A stretch of DNA of 64,000 bases from Diadema antillarum (lineage: Eukaryota), in contig NW_027271169.1 in the NCBI RefSeq assembly GCF_040938485.1, forward strand, positions 62,001-126,000, given 5' to 3'. Positions 53,501 to 59,500 of the stretch are shown here, piece by piece. The position numbers were made by a program. The number at the start of each line of letters is the position of its first letter. Positions within the stretch are counted from its first letter, which is position 1.

Positions 53501-56500
53501 TTTGGAGATGCATGTCCTCAAGATGTAAAGTCCAGTGTATCATAATCATGTGCTCCTTGAAACTTGACTCAATTCATCAGTGATTCCATATCTAGTATAT
53601 CTAACATCGAAAACTTAGTTGTGAGTGTTCTTAATATGATTCATCATTTCCACAGATTATTCAATGACAAGTACAAAAAAATGGTTTTAAGTGCATCTTT
53701 GTTTGATCGAAATGTTCAAAGAACAGTGTGATTGATGCTATCGACAATGTTTTTAAATGTATTTTTCTTCTTCATTTTGCAGGTGAGATCCAATGGCTGT
53801 GTCTACCAGCATTAAAACAAATTCAACACTCATTGGGAGAGGAGATGATCCATACTCTAATTCAACTCTGGTAATTACTAACACGATTCTCACCTCGATC
53901 GTCTGCCTCATCACCATCATCGGCGTGCTCGGCAACAGTTTCGTCATCCTGCTCGTCTCCCTGTCTCGCCAGCTCCAGACAGTCACCAACGTCTTCGTGG
54001 TGAGTCTGACCCTCTCCGACCTGATCGGATGCGGCATGCAGAGTCTGCAGGCAGTGGCGCTCTTACACTTGAAAGGTTGGCCTCTACCAGAATGGGTGTG
54101 TCAAATGACAGGTGGAGTCCTACTTATCGCGTTCAAAGCAAGCATTGTTCATCTGGCGCTCATAAGTGTGGATAGATTCATGGTTATCACTCGCCCTAGA
54201 AACAGATATATGGAGATATACAACCGCAGAAACGTGTTTGTCATGGTCGCATCCGCCTGGTTATGTCCACTCTTCTTTATTGTTCTCCCTCCAGCTTTGG
54301 GATTTGGACGTCTAGGATACAACGCTGCTAATCACTTTTGCACGTTTGATGGTAACGAGTTCCAAGTAAGAATTGTATACGTCATAGAAGAGGTCCTTTT
54401 TGTCACGACTTTCTTGATCATCAGCACTTGTTATCTGAAAATCTTCATCTACGTCAAGACTCAGCATCACAACTTATTGAAGCTCTTCAAGAACAACTCC
54501 GGCAAGTCGATGGCACCAGAGCAAAGTGAGATCAAAATGCGTATGACCATCGATAAACGAGAGATCGAAATTACTAAGAACCTCTTTATCGTAGTTTGCG
54601 GGTTTTTCGCTTGCATCCTTCCCAACACGCTTTGCGTCTTGACGGAGAAATGCTACCTGAAGTACTTCAAAGTTACTGCTGTTGTGTACTCCATCAATTC
54701 CTGCATCAACCCATTCATCTATTGTTTCAAGCAGCCACTTTTTCGCCAAATATCTCTCTCTGTGTTCCAGTGTCGGTGGTCAGAGATTCCCAAACTTTCT
54801 CCTTGGTTACAGCGTATTATCACAGCAAAAAGGCCGACAGACGAAATCATGACGGGTGAGGACTTCCCGAACTCGTCATCAATGACAACCGACCGCTCGA
54901 CTTCAATGGCAGCCACCAGCTCGGCATCAATAGCACAGCTCCAGTGATGGGTAGATTTGTGCTGCCTAATACATCAATGAAATAAAACATCTGTGTCATT
55001 TAAATGATAAATAAAGATAAATATTTGAGGGTATATAACGCCTCTAATATTGGACGCAAACTGTCAATTTGGTGATTAGTGGGAATATCAGTTGATACAA
55101 ATGAAAAGATAATTAAGGGTTCTTTTCTTTTCGTTGTTTAGATCTGAAGCACATATTTACACCCAAAAATGATTTTCACATGATCATGTCTTGATGAGAT
55201 GAATTATTGATTACGCCTTGTGTACTATGTAAGCTAATGCTGAAGTCACGAACGAGTACATGTGAAAGTATGTTTCTTAACTGAGCAAAATCCTTGTTTC
55301 TCAGACAAAAAAAAAAAAAAAATCTGCGTGATGATCCTTCCATTTCACTATAAATCATATTCTTGTAATATGTGTAATGAAATGTTTTTTTTTTTTTTAT
55401 TCTGCCATCAGCTCAAATATCTTACTTAGCAGAGTACAAATTTTTTGCTCCCCTCAGATCTAAGTGCAATTGGGTAAATCGTGAGAACACCTGTGAATTT
55501 AATTCTTTGTATATGCGAGCTTTGGCAATCTTCTCATACTAGATACCCCACTCTCAGTTTTTGTAAGTATAGGGTTAATATCAGGGATGTAAATTGACAC
55601 CTCCAATAGCCATTGATGATAATGGTTTAGCAGTAATGTGTGGAAAATGGGAGAGGATTTGTCTGAACGCAAAGCTGCAAGATTGCCTACATATTGTCAC
55701 TGTAATCTAGAATGAATGCGGAAACGGAGTTTAGTCTAGGTTGAACCATTGACAATATTTCAGATGATTATGTTTCAAATGGATGATTTCATCTGGTCAG
55801 CAGACGGCAATTTAGGAAAAGAAATCGGGATAACACAAAACAATACAAACAAGAATATTCACAGCATTCAAATTTTGTTACTACATACCATGTATAGTAT
55901 GACTTTTTTTCAAGAAATCTGACGTCCCGAAGCATTATCATAAAGATAGATGAACCTAGAGAAGGAAAAAAAAAAACATTCACGGTTTTAAGGTCATGGA
56001 ATAGTTTTGGTTTGAGGTGAGAATTCAACTTTTAACTTTTTGCGAGATACTTAGGAAGCGCTTTATGAAAATAAAGAGCATGCAAGAGGAATTCAAAGAT
56101 TATTTGATGAAAATGGGTTTTAAAATAGCTGAGACATCCCCCCTAAAAAAAAAATGTTAAAAACAAAGCGATGTTCATGAAAGGTGGGACCAACCTTTTA
56201 TTACGATCGCTTTGTTTTCGATATCTCAGCCAATTTAAAACCAATTTTCATCAAATAAACTTTGAATTCCTCTTAGAATTTATATGCTCTGACATTTTTA
56301 ATAAGAGGTTTCTCGTTATCTCCATAAAAGTCATCAAAAAAGGTAGAAACCTGAAGCATCATCTCAACTGAAACTGTACAATCCCTTTAATGGAAGAACT
56401 CTTTGCTTCACGAGCTTACATGTTATTAAGATACGTTTCTATGATTCACTTTATACCACTGCTAACGATTTTCTAATTAAATTATATCAAAACAAAATGC

Positions 56501-59500
56501 CTTGTGGAATTTTTGCTTTGTATATTGTGTTTTACATTTTTTATGTTATTTCATTTCAATTGACTTGAAATGAATTAACCCGTTCTGTACGGGAACTTGG
56601 TGGCCTGCGTGTTAAGTCTATGGGCATGTCAGAATTCAGTATGGAACGGGTTAAGTTAAATTGAATTGAACTGAACAGACTCATCATTTGTTGACTAGAA
56701 GCAATATGAACCCAGCATGATGTCAAAAAAAAATTCTTCTACAACAGTCCATAGTACTGTAATGATAATATATGAATTGCAGCATTAAATCATATCAAAT
56801 CATACAATGAAGTGGACTGGCAATAGCCAAGACGTGTCATACCATCTTACACCTAGCCATTTCCCCCTCACATTAGTCAAAGGCGAACCTCGGCCATACA
56901 CAAAGTGTCACGTGGTTCTCAATCTCTCTCGATTTCTATCGAGATCTCTCCCTTCCTCTTTTTCTCCCGTGCGATCTGTTTTTGAAAAGTTTGTAGTTGA
57001 GGAATAGCTCTTTGTTAAATGTGGCGTTAAGTTCTTTTCACAATTTTTCTTCCACAGTGACTATGCTTTCAAGTCATTTGATTCAAGAAGTTCACAGTTT
57101 CCGTGTGTGTACAGATAAAGCTAGTTCGCGTATTCAAATTACATGCGTCACTGCCAAGAGCCAATCGTATGTCTTCGGGAACGCGGCTTATAATTATTCA
57201 GGTTAACAGGAGTTGGAAATTCAGACTTGCAGCAATTGTGAGAGCAACTGCTGGGGATCAAACAGCTCATCAGTTGATTTTCCATCATTTTCGATAATAT
57301 TGTTACAGCTGATCATCTGCCCGAAAACTAAGAAGAATCTTTAGGTAAGGAGTATGCTTCAGTGGTATTCACAGCACCAATAATGAAAGCTATTATTCAT
57401 TAAGAGACCATTTTAAGAAAGGAAATAAATTGATAAAGAGTACCTCAAGTAGAATTTGGAGAGAGTTACGGATTTGGCTTTTCAAGATTCAATATTTCAT
57501 TGCAAGTTACTTAATATTTCTGTGATATATGTATCAAAATCTCGAAATCGCTGTGATCAGTTTGTGGACAATGACCTTTAGAATTTTAGAAATGTTTGAA
57601 TTTCTTATACAACATTACGTTTTTGATATATTAACTAAACTTATCTTTGAAAATGCTGGAAATACTTTTTTTCATAGTTTTCTCTGTAAAAAGGGAGCGC
57701 TTGAACAGTGCTGATATGCTTCCCTGATAAATTTGCTGTGTAAACACCTGCTGAATTTTCTTCGTCATGAATATGATATCACCAGACTTTCATTGATTAA
57801 TATGATATGGATGGTCTATAGATTTTTGAGGTGCTTTAAAGCTACAAATAAAACGACCAAATTTTGTTGGATGGAGACTGTTGTGCATTTTCACGTCCAG
57901 TTTCGAGGGTTTTTTTCTGTTATGATATATCACATGGATTATCAGTTTTTGGTGGTTAAGATAATAATGCTCAACTTTCAACTGGCTTAAGGACATGATG
58001 TGAAGTGCCATAGTAATTGTTTTGTTTCCTGTCTTCTAGATTCGAGTGCATTTAAGAAAAGTTAACGGGTTTAAATGTTTCATATACAGGGATGGCAGAG
58101 ATCACGGTGAATTCAACCTTTATCGGCAGCATCTACGACCCGTATGATGACTTGGAGTTGGTTATCAGCAACAGCGTTTTGGCCTGTGTAGTCGCCTTAA
58201 TCACAATAACGGGCGTGCTCGGCAACAGTTTCGTCATCCTGCTCGTCTCACTGTCTCGCCAGCTTCAGACCGTCACCAACGTCTTCGTGGTGAGTCTGAC
58301 CCTCTCCGACCTGATCGGATGCAGCATGCTGAGTCTTGAAATTGTGGCATTATTAAACCTGGATGGTTGGCCTTTGCCAGAATGGGTGTGTCAAATGACA
58401 GGTGGGGTATGCGTTATAGCGTTCGTTGCAAGTGTGGCCCATCTTGCACTGATCAGCGTTGATCGGTTTGTCCTCATAACCCGTCCCAAAACGAGGTACA
58501 TGCGGCTGTACAAGGGACGAAATATCATCATGATGGTAGCGTTTGCGTGGCTGGCGCCGCTTTTGTCGATTGTCCTGCCAACATCCTTAGGCTTTGGACG
58601 TCTCGGGTACAACGCCGCCAACTACTTCTGTGTGTTTGATGGAACCAAGCTCCAGCTCCGCATGGTACACATCTTCGAAGAGGTTTTGTTTGCCACGACT
58701 TTTTCCATCATTATATCTTGCTATGTGCGGATCTACCTGTATGTCAGGAGGCAGCATCGCAACCTCCTCCAGTTTTACGACGACAAGCCTGAAAGCTCCC
58801 AGGAACCACAGTCTTCTAGCATGCGAATGACTATAGATAAACGTGAGATTGAAATCACAAAGAATCTTTTTATGGTAGTTTGTGGATATTTCATCTGCGT
58901 CCTCCCAAACTCTTTTTGTGTGCTCTTTGAATCTTGTTACGTGAAATATTTCAAATTCACGGCCGTCGTGTACTCCATCAATTCTTGCATCAATCCCTTC
59001 ATCTATTGTTTCAAACAGCCACTTTTCCGTCAAATCTCCCTCTGCGTATTCCGACGTCGGTGGGCAGATATTCCGAAGCCATCTCCATGGTTACAGGGTT
59101 TGGTGGATGTGAAGGTGAAGAAAGGTACAACTGGAAGAACAGAAATCCCGAATACGGTCTCCATCTCCGCATCGCTGCAAGATGTATAAGGAACAAGAGC
59201 TCCGACGCCCACACATTTATAATCAGACGGCGTACAAGCAAAGATCAGATCGAAATAACAAATACCCTTTTTATTGTAGGTTGAATAATGTTTTCGTTTT
59301 GAGGACTATTCTAGTCAATTTTCTCACAGAAAGACAGGGGAAGGGGTTGACCTTTTTGTTCTTCTTTAGAAAAATGCAATGACTTTGTCATGATATACAT
59401 GTTTTATTTGTAATCGTCCGAAGGATAATGAATCATAATTTGAGATGATTAATTGTTTCAAAACTTTTCCTATTTTGAACATTAATCGCATGCCATTTCG

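What the first reader, a model, noticed from the sequence alone, without database searches (positions are those of the whole stretch)
53922..58322. TM1-ICL1-TM2 tract homogenised across divergent GPCR paralogs (gene conversion)
Seen: copies 3 (53922-54032) and 4 (58212-58322) differ at only 3 of 111 nt over 37 codons. In the equally invariant peptide HLALISVDRF, 8 of 10 codons differ synonymously. The same tract is near-identical in copies 1, 2 and 5. Protein constraint cannot explain synonymous identity. Inference: recurrent ectopic conversion keeps a scaffold module uniform while TM3-TM5 escapes, a cassette-like mode of receptor diversification.
Basis: partly seen in the sequence, partly recalled or inferred. 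Interest (0 to 1): 0.68.

Follow-up and report, generated by a model that had tools for sequence, protein, structure and literature searches.

The report
Gene-conversion patch in sea-urchin receptor genes
Five neighbouring sea-urchin receptor genes that are otherwise long diverged share one nearly identical 111-base stretch, most likely because the copies repeatedly overwrite each other there, a well-known process in tandem gene families.

Summary
The window, from a sea urchin (closest named hits Diadema antillarum; not human), holds five intronless rhodopsin-class GPCR genes in tandem. Over 37 codons (last part of TM1, ICL1, most of TM2), c3 and c4 differ at 3 of 111 bases, against 31% over the whole gene. 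In HLALISVDRF 8 of 10 codons differ synonymously.

Between the two deep clades, synonymous difference is 0.10-0.26 in the tract and 0.70-0.78 elsewhere. A blind scan of silent sites picks exactly these codons (0 of 20,000 permutations).

Nucleotide-level constraint fits poorly. Young differences within c1/c2 and c4/c5 are as dense in the tract as outside (0.135 against 0.135). Only the old between-clade split is missing (0.009 against 0.204). Branch lengths are not proportional by likelihood-ratio test and AIC, though BIC mildly prefers proportionality. GC3 is raised (0.81-0.86 against 0.51-0.59).

Best reading: regional interlocus gene conversion (about 0.85). Other tracts, among c1, c2 and c3 and between c4 and c5, show that exchange is widespread. 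"Cassette-like diversification" is not shown; dN/dS is below 1 throughout. The pattern is known from protocadherin clusters and TLR1/TLR6, so this is a new member of a known kind. No nucleotide data from other urchins could be reached.

The parts
38809..39918 (+). c1: intronless class-A GPCR gene, 369 aa
   Evidence: ORF found; one of five tblastn copies
47427..48542 (+). c2: paralog, 371 aa, 92.7% nucleotide identity to c1
53793..54947 (+). c3: paralog, 384 aa, a mosaic gene. Pfam 7tm_1 E=1.3e-38
58092..59189 (+). c4: paralog, 365 aa. Pfam 7tm_1 E=9.3e-39
62256..63350 (+). c5: paralog, 364 aa, 87.0% nucleotide identity to c4
38917..39027 (+). homogenised tract in c1 (alignment columns 44-80: end of TM1, ICL1, TM2)
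   Evidence: 4 of 111 differences from c3
47541..47651 (+). homogenised tract in c2, the most diverged copy; it carries the I and T residue variants
   Evidence: 9 of 111 differences from c3
53922..54032 (+). homogenised tract in c3; it has no base unique to it
58212..58322 (+). homogenised tract in c4
   Evidence: 3 of 111 differences from c3, all synonymous
62361..62471 (+). homogenised tract in c5
   Evidence: 7 of 111 differences from c3
53879..54039 (+). wider c1~c3 low-divergence tract (columns 29-83; partner in c1 is 38874-39034); its 5' border differs from that of the cross-clade tract
   Evidence: 6 of 161 differences
54531..54733 (+). c2~c3 tract over TM6-TM7 (columns 248-315; partner in c2 is 48150-48352)
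   Evidence: 3 of 203 differences; permutation p=0.0002
58942..59096 (+). c4~c5 low-divergence tract over TM7 and helix 8 (columns 290-341; partner in c5 is 63100-63254)
   Evidence: 6 of 155 differences; c4-c5 dS 0.17 here against 0.52-0.63 in columns 136-290
54150..54179 (+). internal control: HLALISVDRF (end of TM3, DRF motif) in c3; the c4 counterpart is 58440-58469
   Evidence: 8 of 10 codons differ synonymously

Best explanation
The tract is a product of regional interlocus (ectopic, non-allelic) gene conversion among tandem, same-strand, intronless class-A GPCR paralogs of a Diadema sea urchin. The two gene clades, (c1, c2, c3) and (c4, c5), are old: their synonymous sites are saturated and their flanks no longer align. 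One 111-base segment, encoding the last part of TM1, ICL1 and TM2 up to the residues after D2.50, has been copied between copies much more recently, which erased the old divergence there. Since then each copy has picked up its own, mostly GC-to-AT, changes at the ordinary rate. Shown here: the local loss of deep divergence with a normal density of young differences, the raised GC3, the non-proportional branch lengths, and further conversion tracts elsewhere in the same genes. Inferred: several recipient events were needed. Also inferred: the tract keeps converting because its extreme protein conservation preserves enough nucleotide identity for heteroduplex formation, while the diverged sequence on either side stops tract extension or is protected by selection. 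GC-biased repair of heteroduplexes would then explain the raised GC3.
For: (1) Between clades, Nei-Gojobori pS is 0.10-0.26 in the tract and 0.70-0.78 in the rest (Fisher p 8.6e-7 to 6.0e-12). (2) Of 34 degenerate, amino-acid-invariant codon columns in the tract, 23 carry the same codon in all five copies, against 44 of 163 elsewhere (p=1.4e-5). The scan statistic picks columns 44-80 on its own (0 of 20,000 permutations). (3) Test against constraint, on the quartet c1, c2, c4, c5: young within-pair differences are 0.135 per site in the tract and 0.135 outside; deep-split sites are 0.009 against 0.204; counts are 1:15 against 195:129, p=1.6e-5. On silent positions alone the counts are 1:9 against 67:42, p=0.002. 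c1-c2 pS is 0.26 in the tract and 0.20 outside. (4) IQ-TREE partition models reject proportional branch lengths: LRT p=4.7e-4 for the quartet and 1.0e-6 for all five, and AIC agrees. The internal branch is 0.011 in the tract against 0.461 in the rest, and the c1 and c2 terminal branches are no shorter (c4 and c5 are: 0.019 and 0.039 against 0.089 and 0.081). (5) Only this segment is depleted of deep silent differences: 1 of 102 positions against 0.08-0.15 in eight other segments, p=2.3e-4. (6) GC3 is 0.81-0.86 in the tract and 0.51-0.59 in the rest in all five copies (p 1.6e-4 to 7.3e-3); window GC is 0.39. (7) Of 13 singleton changes in the tract, 11 are GC-to-AT relative to the majority base. 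Read, the informative sites at columns 56, 58 and 63 give two four-gamete incompatibilities. (8) Codon preference does not explain the pattern: observed cross-clade codon identity is 0.838, against a mean of 0.611 and a maximum of 0.711 in 5,000 within-amino-acid shuffles. (9) Conversion demonstrably acts in these genes elsewhere: c1~c3 and c2~c3 runs have permutation p=0.0002, and the c3-c4 run over columns 65-80 has p=0.0004. Segment trees move c3 from a long branch to within c1/c2. (10) Cross-clade homology is confined to the coding sequence. (11) At protein level, 4 of 7 D. antillarum/D. setosum orthologue pairs differ in the tract at residues 53, 67 or 74, using states that other paralogs carry. 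In c2 the L/T change at residue 74 is a two-base change.
Against: BIC mildly prefers the proportional model: 6877.5 against 6885.6 for the quartet and 8432.0 against 8436.1 for all five. A GENECONV-style run test on silent sites alone is weak for cross-clade pairs: c3-c4 p=0.04, the others not significant. That is expected when all copies are homogenised, but it means no donor or recipient can be named. c4-c5 pS is lower in the tract than outside (0.16 against 0.31, p=0.095), which allows some constraint or a later c4-c5 exchange. The tract has only three two-state informative sites. Part of c2's excess divergence may come from an unseen donor rather than from mutation. The tract peptide is also nearly invariant in Lytechinus and S. 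purpuratus, where 3-4 of 37 residues differ, and no nucleotide sequence from another species could be examined. The between-species test therefore rests on protein residues, of which V/I and probably L/F need only one base change. The other converted tracts do not show raised GC3.
Confidence: 0.85

Rival explanations
1. Nucleotide-level purifying selection. The tract's bases themselves are functional, for example as an mRNA structure, a regulatory or gene-choice element embedded in the coding sequence, a codon pattern needed for co-translational membrane targeting, or an overlapping antisense gene. Synonymous changes would then be removed in every copy.
For: Synonymous identity is high in all five copies. 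The peptide is deeply conserved across urchins. c4-c5 pS is about half the background. BIC does not reject proportional branch lengths. Composition is unusual, with GC3 0.81-0.86.
Against: Young differences are as dense in the tract as outside (0.135 against 0.135), and c1-c2 has 8 synonymous differences where about 1 to 1.4 would be expected under the rate reduction needed (Poisson p 8e-6 to 1e-4). LRT and AIC reject proportional branches. RNA folding z-scores are -1.00, -0.96 and +0.55, and +0.22 for the antisense strand. There is no Rfam match in the window. c4 has stops in all three antisense frames. The same amino acid uses different codons at different tract positions, yet the same codon across copies.
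Confidence: 0.07
2. Unequal crossing-over or chimeric duplication rather than conversion. The shared segments would be junction products of misaligned recombination between tandem copies.
For: The genes are tandem, on the same strand and 4-9 kb apart. c3 is a multi-parent mosaic. Copy number may differ between the two D. antillarum contigs.
Against: The tract is a 111-base internal patch with diverged sequence on both sides in every cross-clade pair, and flanking DNA is not shared. A single crossover gives one breakpoint, not a bounded patch repeated in five genes.
Confidence: 0.05
3. Assembly or polishing artefact. Short reads from paralogs were mis-mapped during polishing and pulled the copies toward one consensus.
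For: A preprint on one D. antillarum assembly describes short-read polishing and 84.4% duplicated BUSCOs (passages read). I did not determine whether the window comes from that assembly.
Against: The copies keep 3-11 private differences in the tract. The borders are flanked by sequence diverged enough to anchor reads. A second D. antillarum contig encodes the same copy-specific tract residues, and the independent D. setosum annotation encodes the same peptide family. Mis-polishing could only act on sequence that was already nearly identical.
Confidence: 0.03

Closest known systems
Regional gene conversion in clustered protocadherin variable exons (fugu: PMC1852091, abstract and passages of its 'Regional gene conversion' section read)
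   Same: Tandem paralogs; part of the coding sequence is homogenised at synonymous sites with a discrete border, while the ligand-recognition part stays diverged. GC3 is significantly higher in the homogenised part. Homogenisation is lineage-specific.
   Different: The fugu tracts are long 3' regions more than 99% identical within subclusters. Here the tract is a short 111-base internal patch, 92-97% identical, that bridges two deep clades. The proteins are unrelated (cadherins against GPCRs). The lineage-specific nucleotide test was done there and not here.
TLR1/TLR6 gene conversion (PMC2077338, abstract read)
   Same: Tandem receptor paralogs in which conversion limits divergence of one conserved region while other domains diverge.
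   Different: That case has two genes and a region of about 300 residues, with independent events shown in nine species. Here there are five or more genes and 37 codons, and only protein-level data across species.
Concerted evolution or conversion in vertebrate chemosensory GPCR clusters (TAS2R in sparrow: PMC2942037, passages read; olfactory-receptor and opsin cases recalled, not checked)
   Same: Intronless GPCR genes in tandem arrays with suspected conversion.
   Different: In the paper read, conversion is only suggested, from species-specific clustering. No sub-genic tract is defined.
Echinoderm lineage-specific expansions of rhodopsin-type GPCRs ('surreal-GPCRs': PMC7042368, passages read)
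   Same: Mostly single-exon, tandemly arrayed, independently expanded receptor genes in echinoderms.
   Different: Membership of this family in groups A-F was not tested. S. purpuratus and Lytechinus have one close homologue each among the hits, so this expansion is specific to Diadema. The search for 'gene conversion' + 'sea urchin' + 'GPCR' (10 papers listed) returned no title or abstract about conversion in urchin GPCRs.

Membership tests
Rhodopsin-family (class A) GPCR, Pfam PF00001 7tm_1 | Profile match above the curated cut-off over the seven-helix core | tested here: met
   c3 scores 133.4 bits and c4 133.9 bits against a cut-off of 30.5, covering profile positions 1-260 of 260. c3 aligns to muscarinic M4 over residues 32-332.
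Rhodopsin-family (class A) GPCR, Pfam PF00001 7tm_1 | Hallmark motifs: GN in TM1, LxxxD in TM2, D/ERY at the end of TM3, NPxxY in TM7 (motif names recalled) | tested here: met
   GNSF, SLTLSDL, DRF (DRY in c2) and NPFIY can be read in the translations. The third residue of the DRY motif is F in four of the five copies.
Interlocus gene-conversion tract | Bounded local loss of synonymous divergence between paralogs that are otherwise diverged | tested here: met
Interlocus gene-conversion tract | History differs from the rest of the gene: non-proportional branch lengths or incongruence, not merely a slower rate | tested here: met
   LRT p=4.7e-4 and 1.0e-6, and AIC agrees, but BIC mildly prefers proportional branches. 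Deep-to-young site counts are 1:15 against 195:129.
Interlocus gene-conversion tract | Paralogs group by species rather than by orthology inside the tract (concerted evolution) at nucleotide level | not testable with these tools
   No eukaryotic nucleotide collection was available. Protein-level proxy: 4 of 7 orthologue pairs differ at recurrent tract residues.
Interlocus gene-conversion tract | GC enrichment at silent sites (GC-biased conversion; supportive, not obligatory) | tested here: met
   GC3 is 0.81-0.86 against 0.51-0.59. It is not raised in the c2~c3 and c4~c5 tracts.
Melatonin receptor (the name given by the source annotation) | Orthology to characterised melatonin receptors | tested here: inconclusive
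   Source names for the paralogs disagree: melatonin, allatostatin-A and octopamine receptor-like. The best solved-structure matches are muscarinic M4 (E=3.3e-20), 5-HT4 and rhodopsin; melatonin receptor 1B scores E=4.3e-15. I treat the genes as orphan receptors.
Sea-urchin 'surreal-GPCR' chemosensory expansions | Single-exon genes in tandem, lineage-specific expansion | tested here: met
   Five uninterrupted ORFs on one strand. At least five further paralogs lie on the same contig. There is one close homologue each in S. purpuratus and Lytechinus among the hits.
Sea-urchin 'surreal-GPCR' chemosensory expansions | Phylogenetic placement in groups A-F; expression in tube feet or pedicellariae | not tested
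   No reference set or expression data was used.

The most novel reading that the evidence does not exclude
The GC-rich TM1-ICL1-TM2 tract may be more than a passive homogenised patch. It could be a maintained homology anchor shared by all ten or more receptors of the cluster, at which recombination repeatedly starts. Halves of ligand-binding pockets would then be recombined into new chimeric receptors. c3 would be a living example: its 5' part resembles c1, its TM6-TM7 resembles c2, its TM2-ECL1 peptide is identical to that of a distant cluster member, and no D. setosum counterpart was found among the hits. That would be a germline, cassette-like way of diversifying a chemoreceptor family.
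Probability: 0.1. Interest if true: 0.55.

Novelty: new member of a known kind. Interest (0 to 1): 0.3.

Why it matters
This is a clean, internally controlled example of sub-genic gene conversion in an invertebrate deuterostome receptor cluster. The same genes supply both the signal (the tract) and the control (HLALISVDRF, plus the young-against-deep site test). In practice, trees, duplication dates and dN/dS scans for this Diadema GPCR expansion will mislead unless the converted segments are masked. These segments are columns 44-80 across clades, columns 29-83 and 248-315 for c3, and columns 290-341 for c4 and c5. c3 in particular would be misplaced. The finding does not change what is known about how gene families evolve.

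Tried and rejected
(1) A second cross-clade homogenised tract at TM7-helix 8. It was suggested by 83-92% nucleotide identity in the 30-codon windows spanning columns 291-330. Its deep-split silent density is 0.081, which is not different from elsewhere (p=0.59), so the identity there is protein conservation. The small peak at columns 171-182 (LGFGRLGYNA) is likewise not significant.
(2) RNA structure and known RNA families: z-scores of about -1 to +0.5 and 0 Rfam matches.
(3) An overlapping antisense gene: a 115-aa antisense ORF exists only in c3, and c4 has stops in all three antisense frames across the tract.
(4) Convergent codon preference: rejected by the within-amino-acid shuffle.
(5) CpG retention: observed/expected CpG is 0.88-1.05 in the tract and 0.84-0.99 in the rest, so no signal.
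(6) The GENECONV-style longest-run test is uninformative for most cross-clade pairs, because a tract homogenised in all copies has few polymorphic sites.
(7) I first took D. setosum P0003 for the orthologue of c3. One search shows that it has its own D. antillarum orthologues, P0057 and P0058. I withdrew that inference and rebuilt the between-species comparison on seven orthologue pairs.
(8) Positive selection in TM3-TM5: dN/dS is 0.10-0.31 in coarse windows for the two unsaturated pairs. No site-level test was run.
Supplementary files of papers were not consulted.
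Full report
WHAT IS IN THE WINDOW

The 64-kb window contains five uninterrupted ORFs on the + strand:
- c1, 38809-39918
- c2, 47427-48542
- c3, 53793-54947
- c4, 58092-59189
- c5, 62256-63350

They encode 364-384 residues. tblastn with c3 and c4 finds exactly these five copies and no fragments. c3 and c4 match Pfam 7tm_1 over the whole profile, at 133 bits against a cut-off of 30.5.

The closest solved structures are muscarinic M4 (E=3.3e-20), 5-HT4 and rhodopsins. The names given by the source annotation disagree between paralogs: melatonin, allatostatin-A and octopamine receptor-like. 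I therefore treat the genes as orphan class-A receptors.

The closest named proteins are from Diadema antillarum, at 99% for c3. The window is a sea-urchin sequence, not human. The N run at 24710-24861 was left alone.

- c3 53922-54032 and c4 58212-58322 differ at 3 of 111 bases, all synonymous.
- The two genes are 68.7% identical overall (748 of 1089).
- In HLALISVDRF (c3 54150-54179, c4 58440-58469), 8 of 10 codons differ, all synonymously.
- Against c3, the tract has 4 differences in c1, 7 in c5 and 9 in c2.
- Alignment to M4 and the start of the Pfam match at G47-N48 confirm the label. The tract runs from three residues before the TM1 GN motif, through ICL1 (SRQLQT), to four residues past the TM2 LSD aspartate.

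THE PATTERN EXCEEDS CHANCE AND PROTEIN CONSTRAINT

The copies fall into two deep clades, (c1, c2, c3) and (c4, c5).

- Between the clades, Nei-Gojobori pS is 0.70-0.78 outside the tract, which is saturated, and 0.10-0.26 inside it (Fisher p 8.6e-7 to 6.0e-12).
- I restricted the analysis to the 197 codon columns whose amino acid is identical in all five copies and degenerate. In the tract, 23 of 34 such columns carry the same codon in all five copies. Elsewhere the count is 44 of 163 (p=1.4e-5).
None of 20,000 permutations reached its score.
- I cut the alignment into nine segments. Only this one is depleted of silent differences that separate the clades: 1 of 102 positions, against 0.08-0.15 elsewhere (p=2.3e-4).
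- Codon preference is not the cause. I shuffled synonymous codons among positions of the same amino acid within each copy's tract. This gives a mean cross-clade codon identity of 0.611 and a maximum of 0.711 in 5,000 shuffles, against 0.838 observed.

CONVERSION OR NUCLEOTIDE-LEVEL SELECTION?

The cross-species nucleotide test could not be run, so I used an internal test.

If the tract's bases were constrained, every branch should be shortened, including the young branches that separate c1 from c2 and c4 from c5. They are not.
- In the quartet c1, c2, c4, c5, young within-pair differences occur at 0.135 per site in the tract and 0.135 outside it.
- Sites that split the two pairs occur at 0.009 in the tract against 0.204 outside. 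The counts are 1:15 against 195:129 (p=1.6e-5).
- On silent positions only, the counts are 1:9 against 67:42 (p=0.002).
- c1 and c2 differ at 8 synonymous sites in the tract (pS 0.26, against 0.20 outside). The rate reduction needed to explain the cross-clade identity predicts about 1 to 1.4 (Poisson p 8e-6 to 1e-4).

In IQ-TREE, a model with tract branch lengths proportional to the rest is rejected against unlinked lengths. The LRT gives p=4.7e-4 for the quartet and 1.0e-6 for all five, and AIC agrees. The fitted internal branch is 0.011 in the tract and 0.461 in the rest, while the c1 and c2 tips are no shorter. BIC mildly prefers the proportional model in both data sets, which I report as a caveat.

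Other checks point the same way:
- RNA folding of the tract is unremarkable: z = -1.00, -0.96, +0.55, and +0.22 for the antisense strand.
- Rfam finds nothing in the window.
- An antisense ORF is excluded by stops in c4.

SIGNATURES THAT FIT CONVERSION

- GC3 is 0.81-0.86 in the tract against 0.51-0.59 in the rest in every copy (p 1.6e-4 to 7.3e-3). The window as a whole has 39% GC.
- The tract has 13 sites where one copy departs from the other four. Eleven of them are GC-to-AT changes, against 60 GC-to-AT and 53 AT-to-GC outside. This is expected for a GC-rich template that is decaying, although the tract's composition explains part of it.
- c3 has no private change in the tract.
- The three two-state informative sites (columns 56, 58 and 63) support three different groupings. 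By my reading they give two four-gamete incompatibilities within 24 bases.
- Cross-clade similarity ends at the ORF borders. Only c1/c2 and c4/c5 share flanking DNA.

CONVERSION IS NOT CONFINED TO THIS TRACT

- c3 is a mosaic. It differs from c1 at 6 of 161 bases over columns 29-83.
- c3 differs from c2 at 3 of 203 bases over columns 248-315.
- Yet c3 is as far from c1 and c2 as from c4 and c5 at silent sites in columns 81-200 and in the C-tail. Run-length permutation gives p=0.0002 for both c3 pairs.
- c4 and c5 have dS 0.17-0.24 in columns 44-135 and 291-386, against 0.52-0.75 elsewhere.
- c1 and c2 have dS 0.04 in columns 251-290.

So 'TM3-TM5 escapes' is true only across the deep split.

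I suspected a second cross-clade tract at TM7-helix 8 from the raw identity. Silent sites do not support it (p=0.59).

'RECURRENT'

c4 and c5 were already separate genes when the tract was last shared: dS is 0.40 outside the tract and 0.18 inside it. The c1~c3 tract also has a different 5' border. At least three recipient events are therefore needed. This is an inference, not an observation.

CROSS-SPECIES EVIDENCE (PROTEINS ONLY)

- The window's contig encodes at least five more paralogs. A second D. antillarum contig encodes a 99-100% identical c1-c5 series. D. setosum has orthologues of c1, c2, c4 and c5 with consecutive accessions (trees).
- No D. setosum counterpart of c3 appeared among the hits. 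My first assignment of P0003 to c3 was wrong and was corrected.
- The tract peptide is almost invariant in the whole family. It differs at 3-4 of 37 residues in the Lytechinus and S. purpuratus homologues.
- In 4 of 7 D. antillarum/D. setosum orthologue pairs, the tract differs at residue 53 (L/F), 67 (V/I) or 74 (L/T). In each case the states are ones that other paralogs carry.
- At residue 67, three pairs have V in D. antillarum and I in D. setosum. I is also the state in the outgroups.
- The L/T difference is a two-base change in c2.
- This fits variants being moved between paralogs after the species split. However, V/I needs only one transition, so the evidence is suggestive and not decisive.

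COMPARISON WITH WHAT IS KNOWN

The pattern is well documented in other families.
- Fugu protocadherin clusters show 'regional gene conversion' with a discrete border, a diverged recognition part and significantly raised GC3 in the homogenised part (PMC1852091, abstract and passages read).
- TLR1 and TLR6 show conversion that limits divergence of one conserved region while other domains diversify (PMC2077338, abstract read).
- Echinoderm single-exon, tandem, lineage-specific GPCR expansions are known (PMC7042368, passages read).
- A search for 'gene conversion' + 'sea urchin' + 'GPCR' listed 10 papers. None is about conversion in urchin GPCRs, judging by title or abstract.

VERDICT

The conversion reading is well supported, at about 0.85. 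The wider claim of a cassette-like mode of diversification is not shown: dN/dS is 0.02-0.31 outside the C-tail. This is a new member of a known kind, of modest interest. The practical lesson is to mask the converted segments when dating or building trees for this family.

Supplementary files of the papers were not consulted.

Noticed in passing
window 53793-54947 (c3): c3 is a chimera of several parents. Columns 29-83 resemble c1 and columns 248-315 resemble c2. Its peptide GCGMQSLQAVALLHLKGWPLPEW is identical to that of the distant cluster member P0057/P0003 (apart from the GC shared by all copies). Its middle and its tail are unique. No D. setosum counterpart appeared among the hits.
   Followed up: partly
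beyond window end (same contig): The cluster continues. At least five more paralogs (P0005, P0062, P0063, P0061, P0057) are encoded on the window's 1,074,838-bp contig, all with the same tract peptide or a single-residue variant of it.
   Followed up: partly
another contig of the same species (2,915,478 bp): A second c1-c5 series, 99-100% identical in protein and with consecutive accessions, lies on another D. antillarum contig. It is probably the other haplotype or a recent segmental duplicate. No P0005-like member was listed for it, so copy number may differ.
   Followed up: no
window 13298-13657 (+): An open frame matches the C-terminal end of the sodium:neurotransmitter symporter family (PF00209 positions 471-522 of 524, E=5.5e-11). 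It is probably the last coding exon of an SLC6-type transporter gene upstream of the receptor array. It was searched as a single ORF only.
   Followed up: no
window 49717-50127 and 51501-51929: Two direct repeats, 90% identical, lie between c2 and c3. They sit in the only 2-kb bin of the window with more than 50% GC (0.516). Their nature is unknown; the ORF at 50906-51274 (-) has no Pfam match.
   Followed up: no
window 47104-47191; 1744-2132; 18463-18876; 2864-3251: A perfect 45-bp x2 tandem repeat lies about 240 bp upstream of the c2 start codon. There are two longer tandem arrays (periods 164 and 151) whose units both contain GAGGTCAAAGGT, and an (AATG)n array of about 97 copies.
   Followed up: no
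window 38658-40858 and 47262-49584; 58093-59620 and 62242-63793: c1/c2 share about 150 bp upstream and about 1 kb downstream of the ORF. c4/c5 share about 430 bp downstream. Across clades nothing outside the ORF aligns.
   Followed up: yes
window 47796-47798 (c2, alignment column 129): c2 alone has DRY at the end of TM3. The other four copies have DRF. The D. setosum orthologue of c2 has DRF.
   Followed up: no
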